Assembly: GCA_964016885.1 (NCBI GenBank)
Contig: OZ024745.1
Span: 30,628,001 to 30,692,000 of the forward strand
Length of the DNA: 64,000 nucleotides
From: Eledone cirrhosa
Taxonomy: Eukaryota
Reading direction: 5' to 3'
Part shown: positions 4,186-53,077 of the stretch, piece by piece
Layout: every line of letters starts with the position of its first letter
How positions within the stretch are numbered: the first letter of the stretch is position 1
Notes under the pieces: generated by a model
The model's input: only the letters and a program-made list of their open reading frames with translations
The model's database searches: none
What the model was told of the DNA's origin: nothing
Program-made: the position numbers and the translations under genes

Positions 4186-4254
4186 AAGATTAACAAGTTT
4201 TATTTACAGTAATAATAATAATAATAATAATAATAATAATAATAATAATAATAA

Positions 4255-7200
4255 GGATTTCATTTATTGGCCACAAGGGCTGACATATAGGGGACAATAC
4301 AAAAGGCTGAGACTGGGGTTTAACAGAAAAATCAAGTAAACAATATGAATAACAATAACAAAGTAACAATAAAGTAACAAGAAAATTACAAGAAAAAATT
4401 CCCCAATAGGGGGGATGACCACCCAGAGTTCGCTCAGGTACCCCACCAATCCTGAACGACCCGACGCTTCGTGAGCACCCGGAAGGGCAACCCTCTCCTC
4501 CTCAAATTTAACTACCTACAGCCGCATGACCAGAGTAGGCCCACTCACACGGGCCATTCTCGCCACATGCACCCATCTTTCAGCAAATGTACTGGGGGGC
4601 AGCACTTCTCTCTCCACCCTCACCTTCCATTCCAAGTGAAACTTGAAAACGTTGATGAGGGATTGGCCGAAGAGAAAAGTGTCTGTCTTCAGTCCTTTCA
4701 ACCTCGTCCACCATACAACCTCTTTCGCTACTGCCACCAGACAGAGGAAAATTGCCTGCCCTTCCTGGCCAAAAGAAGGCGGCGGGTCGATCTTCACTAT
4801 GGACTCGGCCGATAGCCGGATCCGTTCTACACGCGATAACAGCTGTTCAACATAACTCCACAAGTCAGTAATGCACAGACACTGGACGAGTGCGTGCAGA
4901 ACGGTTTCGTCGCTCTGCGCGCATTTCGGGCAGGTCCGTCTGACAGCACTTCCGTGCCTGTAGAGTTTATCTCGAACTAGCAGTGCCCCCCAGGTAGCAC
5001 TACCAAGCGAGGGATTTTTGGAAATTATCCATCGTCCCCGGTTCGAAAGTCTTCCGGTACAGACTGGTTAGTTCGACTTCGTTGACTCCCAGATCCTCTC
5101 CGAGTGCATCGCCGCACTTGCCCACCACTAATCCTCGATAGAACTCGAGAGTGGAAGTTCCACTGACCGCATTGCCCGCCTGGTAGAGGGCAGTGAGTGC
5201 CTGGCAACATTCCACATGCCAGTCACCCAGTCTCGGTCTCTTCTTGACCCAGGATTGCAGCTCAGTCAAAGAAACGAGCTGCGGAAAAGCCCGTCTGATA
5301 AACGGCGACCACACCTGTTCACCGTTTAGGCAGAATATCTGGAGATGCCGCAGCCTCAGCGCGTGCCTGCGCATCATTAGCCACGGCATGCCCAGCCCTC
5401 CACGTAGAGGGTGCTGGCAGCAGATGGACCGCCTCACCAGCGGAACCTGACCCCCCCACAAGAATTTGAAGAGGAGCCGCTCCAAGATGGCGAGGCGCGA
5501 ACGGGGGCAAGGAACGACGGTCAGACGGTAGTAGATGACGGACGCGATGTACGCGTTCGCCACCTCCGCCCGACCTTTCAGTGATAGCTTCATCCCAGCC
5601 CATTTCTGGGTGAGACTGACTACCCTACCTGTCACCTCGTACCAATTCTTATCCACCTGGAGGTCTGGCCCGAACCAAACCCCTAGAAACTTTACCGGTC
5701 CGTCCGTCCAGCGCCTAACGACGCTGTTGGACGGCATGGACTTGCCTCTCCAGTTGCCGAGTTGCAAGCCCACCGACTTTTCCGGGTTAAGTTTTGCTCC
5801 CGTCAACCTTTCATATTCCTCCAATAAGTTGCCGACCACCTCGATTTCTGAGGTGTCCGACACCATCACGGTGATGTCGTCCGCATAAGCCGATACAGCC
5901 TTTCCGCGTCCCGGTTCGAGCGTTATGCCCTGCAACAGCTCCAGCTTCCGCAGTAAAGGCTCGAGAGGGCACCCTTGACGGACCGATCGGGAGACCTGAA
6001 ACGGTTCCGAGAGGTGGCCATTAATTTTGACCATCGAGCAGGTGCCGCTGTGCATTGCAGCGATCCAGCTTCTGAAGACGGGGCCGAAGCCAGCCGCCTT
6101 GAGGACAGCCTCCAGGTACCGATGGTCGACCCTATCGAATGCTTTCGATTGATCTAAATTGATCAGAGCCCCACTGAAGCCAGGTTTACACCCTACCCTC
6201 TCTATGATGTATCGCATTAGGTGGAGGTTGTCGTGTATGGACCTGGTTGGGATTGCGCAAGTTTGCGCCTCCCCAACCAAATCCCCGACGACAAGCGCCA
6301 ACCTCTTCGCTAACACCCTGGCCAAAATCTTAAACTCTGTATTGGGCAGAGTTATGGGCCTGAAATTGTCTAATGTGTCCCTCTTGTTCTCGTCTTTCCT
6401 TATCAGCGTCACTACGCCCCGGCTCACAGAACTGGAAATACTCCCGTTTTGCTGCCAGTTACATTAGAAGGCTTCGAGGAGAATGGAGAACAAGTCTGGC
6501 ATATTTACGTAAAGCTCGTAGGGCAGACCATCCAAACCGGGTGACTTGCGCCTCATGCAGCCGACAAGGGCATCCTGAATCTCGGCTGAAGTAATTGGCC
6601 TTTCGCAGCGCCCAGCGTCAGCCGTAGAGAGTTGCGGCAAGCCATCGAGGTAGGGACTGAAGTCCGCCACCATCTCTGACCCGCCACTTCCCCCGAACAA
6701 CCGAGCAAAATGTTGGCGAAAGGCCTCACACATCCGCTTGGAATCGCTCAGCTCGTGTCCGTCTCGGTCCGTCAAAGATCGAATCGTGGTTTTATTACCA
6801 CGCTGCGCCTCTGCCACGCGGGCCCATCGAACAGCTTTGGTTCCCTCGTTTCTCAGAGCACGCGCCTTAGCTCTGACAATGCAACCTTCGTGTTTCGCAT
6901 TGAAGAAATGGTCTAATTCCATTCTGGCCGCTAGCACGTCAGTTGCAATGCCACTACCAATAGCCTCGTCTAACTTATCTACCAACTTCCCCTCCTTTCT
7001 ATTTTTCTCTAACGCTACTTCTTTGCTAAACTCTATCGACATTACTCTAATCTCTCTTTTGAGAGCCCCCCACCATCTATTGTTGACGACTCCCCCTGTC
7101 AACTTTTTCTTAACTAAATTGTTTACCTGGTCCCTGTAAGCCTTACGTGCCGGAAATGACATGTTTAACTTCCAGTAACCAGGTCCTAACCTACGCGTCT

Positions 7201-50739: not shown

Positions 50740-50954
50740 GTTGTTTTTTGTTTAAAATGAAATTTTGGGTACAAAACCCCAATAACTGGTTATTTAACCC
50801 CGAAGGGCCAAATAACGGACAGAAAGACCCTTCTCACGAGGAGGAGGGTGTCTTTATCAACAATTTGGTTCAAGTTTTAAACAATTTACAATTGTTTTAA
50901 CGGTTAAAAATTACTATACCTTACAGAGCCGAGCCTCCGTCAACCATGGCATTC

Positions 50955-53077
50955 AATAATAATAATAATAATAAATAAATTTAAAAAAAAAAAAAAAAAA
51001 AAAAAAAAAAGGGAAAAGATATATATATATATATATATATACACACATATATATACATACATATATATATACACATATATACACACACACATACATACAT
51101 ATACATACATATATACACACACACATACATACACATACACTCACACATATATACACACATACATTAATAACAATAATAATAATAATAATAATAATAATAA
51201 TAATAATAATAATAATAATAATAGCAATAATAATAATAACGACAACAACTATAATAATATACATATTCATATATATATACACACACACGCACGCACATAA
51301 GCATATCTACACACACACACACACACACACACAAACACACGATAGCAACTAACAGTGCTGCGATCGAATGTGGCTTTTTAGCCCAGCCAATGATCTAAAA
51401 TGTCTTGCACAGAGTCGGCAACCAAAACATTTACTGGGAATAGTCGGCTGTGGTTGGAGTTCGTGTACTTTTGCATGTCGCTTGAGTCCTCCTGCTGATT
51501 TACATTCTCTACCACATGTTTGGCAAGCATGATGAGTAGCATCTCCAACAGCAGCCTGGTAGTCAACCACTGGTCTTACTTTATGACTGCGAAGATGACT
51601 TTCGAGTCCAGCTTTGCTTAGGCAGAGTCTCGCACAGACGCTGCATGTCAGAAACATAGGAGGACCCTCGCCGTCTGGAAGTGCAACAGCAATGCCCTTC
51701 CTCACGTCCCGCTTTACTTTCTCGTGTGCGATTCGAGATGCCTCAAAGGCAACTTTTCCCTCATATACAGTCTTTCTCCATTTATTACGATCAGCAGCAA
51801 TATTTTCCCATGTATCAGCAGAGATGTTAGCGTCTTTCAGAGAGGCTTTCAAGGAATCCTTATACCTCTTTTTTGGTTTATGTGGCGGTCGTTTTCCTTT
51901 AACCAACTCTCCATAGAAGAGTTGTTTTGGTATTCTAGAATCCTTCATCCTGGCAAGGTGACCACTCCAACGGAGTCGCTGCTTAAGCACAAGAGCCTCT
52001 ATACTGTCACACATAGAGCTTTCCAAAATCTCGACATCACTGATGTGGTCCCTCCAGCGAACGCCATGTATCCGTCTGAGACACATCTGATGGAAACGCT
52101 CCAATTGCTTAAGGTGGCGTCGATATGTGACCCAGGTCTCGCAGGCATAAAGAAGACAAGAGAGTACACATGCCCTGTACACCTTTACCTTTGTCCTCCT
52201 GCATATGTCTCGCCGACCCCAGAGTCGCCTTTCTAGCTTTCCGAAAGCATCACTTGCTTTCCTAATCCTAAGTGAGATTTCACCGTCAAGGTTGCCGTAT
52301 CGATTGACAGTGCTTCCCAGGTAGACAAACTGATCAACCACTCCAAGTCGTTTGCCATACACATAGATGTTTGGTTCAGTGTACTGCCCACCAGGTGCAG
52401 GTTGGTACATGACGACGGTTTTCTTGAGACTGACAGTCAAACCCAGGGCAGTGCAAGCGTCAGAAAATACATTCAAAATGTGCTGCATATCACTCTCTGT
52501 GTGCGCTACAAGATCGCAATCATCTGCATACAAGAGGTCTCTTATGACTGATGTAAATACTTTTGTCTTCGCAACAAAGCGCCTGATGTTAAATATGCTG
52601 CCTGAGGTTCGATATCGGATGTAAACACCATGCTCGCAATTCCTGAATGCAATACAGAAAACCATTGCAAAGTATATGGCAAACAGGGTCGGTGCTGGAA
52701 TATCCCCCTGTTTCACTCCATTTTTTACTGAGATAGGCTCCGACATGTTACCTCCGACATTAACCCAAGCCTTCATGTCGTCATGGAAAGACCTAACTAA
52801 AGCAAGGAACTTATCAGGGCAACCAAGTTTCTGGAGAACCTTCCATAATGCATCTCTGTTGACAGTATCGAAAGCCTTTGTCAGATCGACAAAAACCTGA
52901 TACAGATCCAAGCCCTGTTCAATGCACTTCTCCTGGAGCTGTCTAGCTGAGAAGATCATATCAGTAGTGCCGCGTCCAACACGAAAACCAGATTGACTTT
53001 CAGGAAGGACACAATCTGCAATGTGTGTCAGCAGACGGTCCAGAAGCACCCTACATAAAACTTTCCCCACGACAGAA
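50955..53077 (-). mobile_element. RTE-clade LINE with three C-terminal C2H2 fingers, 5'-truncated; 3'UTR interrupted by the Tx1 array
   Basis: Open frame 51349-53070: PESQSGFR, FVDLTKAFDTV, GVKQG, LLYADD, YLGS, YACETW, LRWSGH; fingers CSVC..H..H, CQTC..H..H, CRLC..H..H. Confidence 0.95.

What the first reader, a model, noticed from the sequence alone, without database searches (positions are those of the whole stretch)
4210..50975. A Tx1/L1-type LINE lineage apparently specific for (ATT)n/(TAA)n microsatellites, with two intact copies
Seen: all six copies (A, B, C, D1-D3; at least three diverged subfamilies) have TAA repeats at both ends, including the 5'-truncated copy B, whose break point at 10650 abuts (ATA)n. 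All lie in the same orientation relative to the repeat. The 3' end is AATAAA plus a few bases then (ATT)n, not poly(A). D2 and D3 have intact ORF1 and 1139-aa ORF2. None sits in the far more abundant (TA)n or (GT)n. Established: the Tx1 group includes microsatellite-specific families such as Kibi (TC) and Koshi (TTC). Inference: this is an ATT-specific, strand-specific APE retrotransposon that may still be active. I do not recall a described ATT-targeting Tx1 family but cannot check this.
Basis: partly seen in the sequence, partly recalled or inferred. Interest (0 to 1): 0.82.

Follow-up and report, generated by a model that had tools for sequence, protein, structure and literature searches.

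The report
Octopod LINE that targets ATT repeats
Six copies of one LINE retrotransposon lineage in this likely octopus DNA all lie the same way round inside ATT repeats, a duplicate of one site carries the repeat without the element, and two copies are intact, so the element likely seeks out ATT repeats and is likely still able to move.

Summary
Six L1/Tx1-group LINE copies lie on the minus strand, with (ATT)n at both ends and no poly(A). D2 and D3 have intact ORF1 (two RRMs plus a CCHC knuckle) and a 1139-aa APE-RT ORF2. The host is likely an octopod.

New support: two paralogues of the D site carry the (AAT)n tract without the element; an RLE-type (Dong-like) LINE shares one tract; two SINE-like fragments share the 3' hairpin and ATT flanks.

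New limits: there are two loci only. At locus 1 each copy sits behind another copy's tail, which also fits self-targeting, so only locus D shows a plain (ATT)n target. Genome-wide flanks could not be read.

D1-D3 share one 5' junction and spacer. Their 3' parts differ mostly at synonymous sites, so they likely come from different source copies, joined by recombination with the neighbour. The sister lineage (41% identity) forms head-to-tail arrays without ATT.

No ATT-targeting Tx1 family turned up in seven paper searches, but Repbase and the key figure were unreadable. Verdict: likely a new target variant of the known microsatellite-specific Tx1-type LINEs.

The parts
4210..4254 (.). (TAA)15 tract at the 3' end of copy A
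4255..8424 (-). Copy A: 5' end like copy C's, most of ORF1 deleted, ORF2 (7894-4516) with stops and a frameshift, 67-71% aa identity to D2
8425..8454 (.). (AAT)10 between A's 5' end and the RLE-type LINE
8455..9324 (+). 5'-truncated RLE-type LINE (CCHC plus PD-(D/E)xK-like motifs; R4/Dong-like by motif and recall, not by tree), opposite orientation, TAA repeats on both sides
   Evidence: best hit is an uncharacterised Octopus bimaculoides protein, 69%
9325..9343 (.). (TAA)6 shared by the RLE-type LINE's 3' end and B's 3' end
9344..10650 (-). Copy B: 5'-truncated (1.3 kb), 85% identical to C
10651..10673 (.). AAT-phase tract that is both C's 3' tail and B's 5' flank
10674..16328 (-). Copy C: near full length, many stops and frameshifts
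16329..16440 (-). SINE-like fragment 1 (body 16338-16433) with the LINE-type 3' hairpin and an (ATT)3 tail that is C's 5' flank; two ATT units at its own 5' break
20311..20446 (-). SINE-like fragment 2, 92% like fragment 1, same hairpin, (ATT)2 at the 3' end and (ATT)3 at the 5' end
32330..32377 (.). (AAT)16 at D1's 3' end (tract a)
32378..38386 (-). Copy D1: ORF1 intact, ORF2 broken by small indels clustered at about 32700-34160
38387..38644 (.). Spacer S1: (AAT)6, A-run, AT/AC repeats, (AAT)14; same as S2 and S3 apart from run lengths
38645..44670 (-). Copy D2, intact: 5' UTR 215 nt, ORF1 44455-42362 (697 aa; two RRMs plus CCHC), 35-nt gap, ORF2 42326-38907 (1139 aa; APE, RT, zf-RVT), 3' UTR 262 nt with terminal hairpin
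44671..44936 (.). Spacer S2
44937..50954 (-). Copy D3, intact: ORF1 50739-48655 (694 aa), ORF2 48619-45200 (1139 aa)
50955..51239 (.). Spacer S3 ending in (AAT)17 (tract b) and the original flank
53386..53760 (-). Inverted paralogue of the D site without the element: 44-nt (AAT)n at 53638-53681, then the same spacer
   Evidence: 0 differences in 213 nt of unique flank
62180..62460 (+). Older direct paralogue of the D site without the element: 27-nt (TAA)n at 62243-62269
   Evidence: 31 substitutions in about 1,490 nt of adjoining sequence

Best explanation
This is a young LINE lineage of the L1/Tx1 group, likely from an octopod, whose copies all sit one way round in (ATT)n, and whose AP-type endonuclease likely nicks the (AAT)n strand so that reverse transcription would prime on an RNA ending in a conserved hairpin and (AUU)n rather than poly(A). 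SHOWN: the domain layout, the junctions, the empty paralogous sites, the hairpin shared with two SINE-like fragments, and the synonymous excess and 5'/3' polarity among D1-D3. INFERRED: nicking of the (AAT)n strand; pairing of a read-through (AUU)n RNA end with the primer; a duplication of roughly 20-24 nt; mobilisation of the SINE in trans; targets as short as 2-3 units. The D array is best read as repeated insertion plus recombination (confidence about 0.55). D1 went into tract a. Later family members went into tract b, 200 bp upstream, and took their 5' part and the spacer from the neighbouring copy, either during integration or by unequal crossover afterwards.
For: Junctions: 4 of 4 distinct 5' junctions and 6 of 6 3' junctions are in ATT phase on one strand; background is 0.0028 per junction. 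Empty sites: the D site occurs twice more in the window with (AAT)n and no element, and its upstream neighbour is a T-run, not a family tail. An RLE-type LINE sits in the same tract as A and B; TAA is listed as the target of Dong elements in PMC3812793 (passage). The endonuclease hairpin loop reads NRI(G/V)SSR in A, C and D although ORF2 is only about 60-76% identical, and it varies in the sister lineage; PMC1950540 ties this loop to target choice (passages). The 3' hairpin covaries at 4 of 5 pairs, with 0 of 500 shuffles reaching the score. D array: 38 synonymous to 20 non-synonymous changes against 28% expected, P 3e-9; D1=D2 over nt 1-689 (P 0.002) and D2=D3 over nt 1-1672 (first substitution at 1785, P 0.0009). 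In 16 of the 40 variant rows shown from public runs the other letter is the D1 or D3 allele, and two letters in the shared 5' part are nearly absent from the family in three runs.
Against: There are only two loci. At locus 1 the order SINE-like > C > B > (RLE LINE) > A fits insertion behind a family tail just as well. Flanks of other genomic copies were not shown by the read tool. The empty sites could in principle be precise excisions between two tracts. D2's own changes alone are not biased (5:5, P 0.12). The sister arrays do not show the shared-5' polarity, and one shows the reverse. The hairpin is short, it was defined from these same sequences, and they are related, so the shuffle figure is not a probability. 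No long read was available to confirm the array; D1's clustered indels suggest local assembly error.
Confidence: 0.72

Rival explanations
1. Tail- or self-targeting: (ATT)n is the element's own tail, and the enzyme prefers the 3' end of a family member or partner SINE, as the sister lineage appears to do with its own 17-nt linker.
For: At locus 1, C follows a SINE-like tail, B follows C's tail, and A would follow B's tail if the RLE LINE came later. The sister lineage forms head-to-tail arrays in which 17 of 17 units, including 3 truncated ones, start with a similar 16-17-nt linker directly after AATAAA.
Against: D went into an (AAT)n tract with no hairpin or AATAAA tail upstream, as the empty paralogues show. 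Tract b, which holds the 3' ends of D2 and D3, also lacks one. SINE-like fragment 2 has ATT on both sides with no family member beside it.
Confidence: 0.13
2. Loose preference for AT-rich DNA, as in L1: the (ATT)n is made by slippage at the 3' end, and the 5' repeats come from duplicated or expanded target sequence.
For: The SINE-like fragments and C have only 2-3 ATT units at the 5' side. The window is 61% A+T, and one window chosen for looking odd is a biased sample.
Against: There is no copy in 8,312 nt of (TA)n, against six in about 580 nt of AAT-type repeat. The tract pre-exists at the empty sites. Phase and strand are the same in four diverged types.
Confidence: 0.08
3. For the D array only: one insertion was tandem-duplicated by slippage or crossover between tracts a and b and then altered by gene conversion from dispersed copies, or the array is partly an assembly artefact.
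For: The spacers and 5' junctions are identical, and the unit boundary lies in (AAT)n. The family is very abundant (49,776 and 61,181 contigs laid in two runs), so donors are plentiful. D1 has 8 small indels near a giant (TA)n tract.
Against: Neutral decay after duplication cannot give 38:20 synonymous changes. D1-D2 differences are spread evenly from nt 690 to the 3' end (7, 8, 6, 5, 6, 2, 7, 3, 8 per 600 nt) rather than in patches, and they do not rise where read depth rises about five-fold. Polishing with reads of other copies would be expected to make the copies more alike, not less (inference).
Confidence: 0.35

Closest known systems
Kibi and Koshi (teleost Tx1 families in (TC)n and (TTC)n) and crocodilian Tx1 families in (TTCC)n/(TTTC)n; PMC4494074, passages
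   Same: APE-type two-ORF LINE of the L1/Tx1 group lying in a microsatellite; works alike by inference.
   Different: Target is (ATT)n and the host is likely an octopod. In the RT tree it lies outside the Tx1L plus fish clade; named Kibi and Koshi proteins were not among the hits, so direct kinship is untested.
Tx1L of Xenopus laevis (P14381)
   Same: Best-scoring curated, named element: 29% identity over 974 aligned positions, 326 bits against 179 bits for human L1 ORF2p; same APE-RT-CCHC order.
   Different: Tx1L inserts into the Tx1D transposon; its ORF2 is 1308 aa against 1139; its endonuclease loop is two residues longer and differs in sequence.
Dong elements (TAA-targeting; PMC3812793 passage; R4 clade with RLE endonuclease is recalled)
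   Same: Same microsatellite; a likely member shares the tract at 8455-9324.
   Different: Different endonuclease class and the opposite strand: that element reads (TAA)n on its sense strand, this one (ATT)n.
Unnamed sister lineage in animal DNA within MAG record CAXXMW01 (G001) and ENA assemblies
   Same: 41-44% ORF2 identity, sister clade with support 1.00, same CT(T/C/A)GT hairpin and AATAAA end without poly(A).
   Different: Head-to-tail arrays of up to 12 or more units joined by a 16-17-nt linker, with no (ATT)n; different endonuclease loops.
Tandem TEs formed by double insertion and unequal exchange, such as R1 arrays (PMC5932611, passages); recombination of L1 cDNA intermediates (PMC13526784, introduction and passages)
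   Same: Site preference yields neighbouring copies that then recombine.
   Different: Here the units are separated by a 200-bp host spacer and share a 5' part that was likely copied from the neighbour.

Membership tests
Tx1 clade (L1 group) | ORF2 with N-terminal APE, RT and C-terminal zinc-binding domain | tested here: met
   Pfam PF03372, PF00078, PF13966; catalytic motifs align with L1 and Tx1L
Tx1 clade (L1 group) | ORF1 with RRM(s) and CCHC knuckle (feature recalled) | tested here: met
   Model of aa 160-392, pLDDT 91.7; all listed best matches are RRM-type RNA-binding or spliceosome entries; CX2CX4HX4C in the sequence; no Pfam family above its cut-off
Tx1 clade (L1 group) | RT phylogeny groups with Tx1L to the exclusion of L1 proper | tested here: inconclusive
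   FastTree, 125 rows (115 of the 120 listed hits), 424 columns: own clade 1.00, separate from the Tx1L/fish clade 1.00, joined by short weak branches; no mammalian L1 in the tree. Bit scores favour Tx1L (326 against 179).
Microsatellite-specific Tx1 families (Kibi/Koshi type) | Target repeat at both junctions in one orientation | tested here: met
   6 of 6 copies, 4 distinct 5' junctions, 2 loci
Microsatellite-specific Tx1 families (Kibi/Koshi type) | Target in over 20% of genomic flanks (criterion in PMC4494074) | not testable with these tools
   No genome held; terminal loose ends not displayed
Microsatellite-specific Tx1 families (Kibi/Koshi type) | Target is (TC)n, (TTC)n or a related pyrimidine repeat | tested here: not met
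   The flanks are (ATT)n; so it is not a Kibi or Koshi family, though it works like one
Sequence-specific APE retrotransposons | Endonuclease nicks the target in vitro | not testable with these tools
   Needs recombinant protein
Dong/R4 (for the six copies) | C-terminal RLE endonuclease, no APE | tested here: not met
   APE present
Dong/R4 (for 8455-9324) | CCHC plus RLE motif, homologues with RT and no APE, TAA flanks | tested here: inconclusive
   Motifs and flanks are present and three long homologues have RT without APE; no named Dong was compared

The most novel reading that the evidence does not exclude
Octopods carry a young, abundant, still active and undescribed APE retrotransposon lineage that switched target from its own 3' end (as in its array-forming sister lineage) to (ATT)n. 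It recognises its RNA by a conserved hairpin and mobilises a SINE whose ATT tails seed new targets. It converges with Dong on the same microsatellite from the opposite strand. It builds tandem arrays by finishing new insertions on the neighbouring copy, an event caught twice at this locus.
Probability: 0.3. Interest if true: 0.72.

Novelty: new variant of a known kind. Interest (0 to 1): 0.52.

Why it matters
Microsatellite targeting by AP-type endonucleases is described in PMC3812793 as not well understood. An intact element with a simple three-base target, several diverged subfamilies, and a sister lineage with a different target make a ready comparison for finding what sets specificity, for example by loop swaps. 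It may also identify the partner LINE of an octopus SINE and explain part of how TEs cluster in octopus genomes, where L1-Tx1 covers 56 Mb in 80 families in O. vulgaris and no target is discussed in the passages seen. The D locus would be a natural record of recombination-completed insertion. A new repeat unit for a group already known to switch targets often is a modest surprise by itself.

Tried and rejected
1. No whole genome is held, so there is no genome-wide flank table.
2. Laying four runs on D2 showed 17 of 4,218 loose-end rows, none at the termini. The one raw-read run laid only 6 reads, all under 90% alike. No RNA holder was listed; that says nothing about expression.
3. The 3'-end pattern found 0 matches in viral and in prokaryotic genome contigs, and the protein scan found none in viral contigs.
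4. Of 54 metagenome loci, 35 were screened, plus 2 genome loci. None showed an ATT/TAA run of 12 nt or more. They are distant (23-42%) and often cut short, so this is weak. Of the 38 sister loci, 14 were screened and showed none of 15 nt or more.
5. I first read D1-D3 as a plain tandem duplication and dropped that.
6. I tested whether the sister arrays share 5' parts between neighbours: they do not.
7. Rfam and ARAGORN found nothing in the window, so no tRNA head was seen for the SINE-like fragments; their SINE identity rests on the shared tail and on my recall of octopus SINEs.
8. Weak Pfam MBD hits on ORF1 were below cut-off and are rejected.
9. Three look-ups of earlier findings returned nothing.
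10. The 2004 Kojima and Fujiwara paper and a review by DOI were not held. The supplements and Figure 3 labels of PMC4494074 could not be read and may list an ATT-targeting family.
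Full report
1. What is there. The window holds six related LINE copies, all on the minus strand, at two loci. Locus 1, read along the elements' sense strand, runs: SINE-like fragment, (ATT)3, C (16328-10674), a 23-nt ATT tract, B (10650-9344, 5'-truncated), (ATT)6, an RLE-type LINE in the opposite orientation (8455-9324), (ATT)10, A (8424-4255), (ATT)15. 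Locus 2 is D3, D2, D1, each preceded by the same 200-bp low-complexity spacer and (ATT)6. All six end in AATAAA, 6-8 more bases and (ATT)n, with no poly(A). D2 has a 697-aa ORF1, a 35-nt gap and a 1139-aa ORF2. D3 has 694 and 1139 aa. D1's ORF2 is broken by 8 small indels close to a very long (TA)n tract, which may be assembly error. A, B and C carry stops or frameshifts, and A lacks most of ORF1. The four types are 70-85% identical in DNA, with third codon positions most changed. The host is likely an octopod: the best named ORF2 hit is Argonauta hians at 69%, and the RLE fragment's best hit is Octopus bimaculoides at 69%.

2. Protein anatomy. ORF2 has Pfam APE, RT and zf-RVT domains. It scores 326 bits against Xenopus Tx1L and 179 against human L1 ORF2p. 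ORF1 has no Pfam family above cut-off. A model of residues 160-392, built on 56 aligned sequences (55 of the 150 listed hits), has pLDDT 91.7 and matches tandem RRM proteins, followed by a CCHC knuckle. In an RT tree of 125 rows (115 of the 120 listed hits, four window or locus rows, six outgroups), D2, A, P0001 and the Argonauta protein form a clade (1.00). Its sister (1.00) is a large unnamed clade. Tx1L and the fish elements form a separate clade (1.00). Deeper branches are short and no mammalian L1 was included. So 'L1/Tx1 group' is safe, 'Tx1 clade' is likely, and 'relative of Kibi or Koshi' is not shown.

3. Is the repeat a target? Outside the elements and the tracts touching them, 189 of 68,164 strand-positions are preceded by (ATT)3. 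All four distinct 5' junctions are. The strongest evidence is new. The D site is duplicated twice in the window without the element: an inverted copy at 53386-53760 (0 differences in 213 nt of unique flank) and an older direct copy at 62180-62460 (31 substitutions in about 1,490 nt). Both have an (AAT)n tract, of 44 and 27 nt, where D sits. The filled site has 48 + 20 nt, an excess of 24 nt over the closer paralogue; tract lengths vary, so that is only a rough size for duplication plus tail. An RLE-type LINE with TAA on both sides lies in the same tract as A and B. PMC3812793 (passage) lists TAA as the target of Dong elements only. The endonuclease hairpin loop, which PMC1950540 (passages) links to target choice, is NRI(G/V)SSR in A, C and D and varies among 10 sister-clade proteins where it could be extracted.

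4. Against over-reading. B's 5' flank is C's tail, and C's 5' flank is the tail of a SINE-like fragment. If the RLE element arrived last, A also followed B's tail. Locus 1 therefore fits insertion behind a family member's 3' end as well as insertion into plain (ATT)n. That rival is real, because the sister lineage appears to do exactly this. In MAG record CAXXMW01, 38 of the 40 loci are 41-44% identical to D2 and lie in animal-like, microsatellite-rich DNA. They form head-to-tail arrays: 17 of 17 units examined on two contigs, 3 of them 5'-truncated, begin with a similar 16-17-nt linker directly after AATAAA, with no (ATT)n. Only locus D, and SINE-like fragment 2, separate the two readings. 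The genome-wide test could not be run: no genome is held, and the read tool did not display flank letters.

5. The RNA end and a likely partner SINE. All six copies have a small hairpin with loop CTTGT about 20 nt before the tail. So do two SINE-like fragments (16338-16433 and about 20317-20437), and a related motif occurs in 37 of 38 sister loci. On 11 distinct rows, 4 of 5 pairs change on both sides and 87% of cells pair; 0 of 500 shuffles reach the covariation score, and slid controls score 0.00-0.20 against 0.37. The rows are related and I chose the structure from them, so this is support, not proof. Both SINE-like fragments have ATT units at both ends, though only 2-3. I infer stringent recognition of the 3' end and mobilisation of the SINE in trans. 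No tRNA head was found, and my impression that these are pieces of a common octopus SINE is recalled, not tested.

6. The D array. The three spacers and 5' junctions are the same, so the 5' side has one origin. Yet the copies differ by 52, 51 and 20 substitutions, and in the ORFs 38 are synonymous and 20 are not, against 28% synonymous expected without selection (P 3e-9; D1 branch 26:13, D3 7:2, D2 5:5 and not significant). The differences are polarised. D1 and D2 are identical over nt 1-689. D2 and D3 are identical over nt 1-1672, with a 9-nt in-frame gap in D3 at that point. Beyond those points the differences run to the 3' end. In public runs the family is abundant (49,776 and 61,181 contigs laid) and 3'-biased in depth. 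Of the 40 variant rows shown (570 not shown), 16 have the D1 or D3 letter as the alternative, against 0.4 expected, and two letters in the shared 5' part are nearly absent in three runs. The simplest reading: D1 entered tract a; other family members later entered tract b; and each gained its 5' part and a spacer from the neighbour, during integration or by unequal crossover with a shorter allele. This restores six independent 3' junctions but only four 5' junctions. Duplication with gene conversion, or an assembly artefact, remains possible at about 0.35. The sister arrays do not show the same polarity.

7. Mechanism, by step. Shown: structure, junctions, empty sites, hairpin, polarity. Inferred from established target-primed reverse transcription (PMC13526784, introduction): the APE domain nicks the (AAT)n strand, the RNA's (AUU)n end pairs with the freed 3' end, and a staggered second cut gives a duplication of about 20 nt. 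Activity is suggested by two intact copies and by insertion after a duplication with no differences in 213 nt. O. vulgaris has 13 recently active L1-Tx1 families (PMC13282606, table), but I could not match them to this one. Nothing here tests activity directly.

8. What is known. PMC4494074 (passages and outline; figure and supplements not available) gives Tx1 targets as (TC)n, (TTC)n, (TTCC)n/(TTTC)n, U2, U5, 5S, satellites and transposons. PMC4640811 (passages) names Tx1 as one of three target-specific groups. PMC3747384, PMC5786205, PMC4758252 and PMC8869645 (passages) add no ATT-targeting Tx1 and no octopus SINE-Tx1 pair. PMC5932611 (passages) shows that site preference makes tandem TEs that expand by unequal exchange. 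Seven full-text searches aimed at Tx1 targets, octopus LINEs or octopus SINEs listed no paper describing an ATT-targeting Tx1; for most listed papers I saw only the listing. The library lacks most subscription papers, the 2004 survey and Repbase, so an existing entry is quite possible.

9. Verdict. The feature is real and more than chance. It works like a microsatellite-specific Tx1-type LINE, with a target I could not find described for that group. It is not a Kibi or Koshi family. Targeting of (ATT)n: about 0.75-0.8. Recombination-completed array: about 0.55. Undescribed: about 0.55. Novelty: new variant of a known kind. The sister lineage, the shared hairpin and the array add to it.

Noticed in passing
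L055-L094, L095-L103 (G001 contigs C9, C19; record CAXXMW01): Animal DNA inside a bacterial MAG holds long head-to-tail arrays (12 or more units, about 6.4 kb each, several subfamilies) of a sister LINE lineage. Each unit is preceded by a 16-17-nt linker, also before truncated units, which suggests self-targeting. Some neighbours share ORF2 but differ in the 5' part.
   Followed up: partly
window 8455-9324: 5'-truncated RLE-type (Dong-like) LINE flanked by TAA repeats, in the opposite orientation to the six copies.
   Followed up: partly
window 16329-16440 and 20311-20446: Two SINE-like fragments sharing the LINE's 3' hairpin and ATT flanks; likely a non-autonomous partner.
   Followed up: partly
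window 29280-32377 plus 50955-51547 against 53078-56752: Very recent inverted duplication (fold-back) around a 1.5-kb core; one arm lacks the 18.6-kb D array. It could also be two haplotypes joined in the assembly.
   Followed up: partly
window 51349-53085 and 62517-64000: RT-encoding LINE (RTE-like by recall) with a 578-aa open stretch ending in C2H2 zinc fingers; a second copy about 2% diverged carries the same flank.
   Followed up: no
window 1-2708 and 3136-4175: A 60-bp tandem array (about 45 copies) and a 46-47-bp array (15.5 near-perfect copies plus older ones) next to copy A's 3' tract.
   Followed up: no
window 26385-27806: RT fragment of another LINE clade on the plus strand inside (TA)n-rich DNA.
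   Followed up: no
window 57233-57574: GIY-YIG-like fragment (weak Pfam hit, below cut-off), possibly the end of a Penelope-like element, next to (TA)n.
   Followed up: no
window 3' ends of B, C, D: A conserved TAATG about 30 nt upstream of the hairpin is predicted to pair with the first unit of the tail, a hint that the RNA includes the start of the (AUU)n.
   Followed up: no
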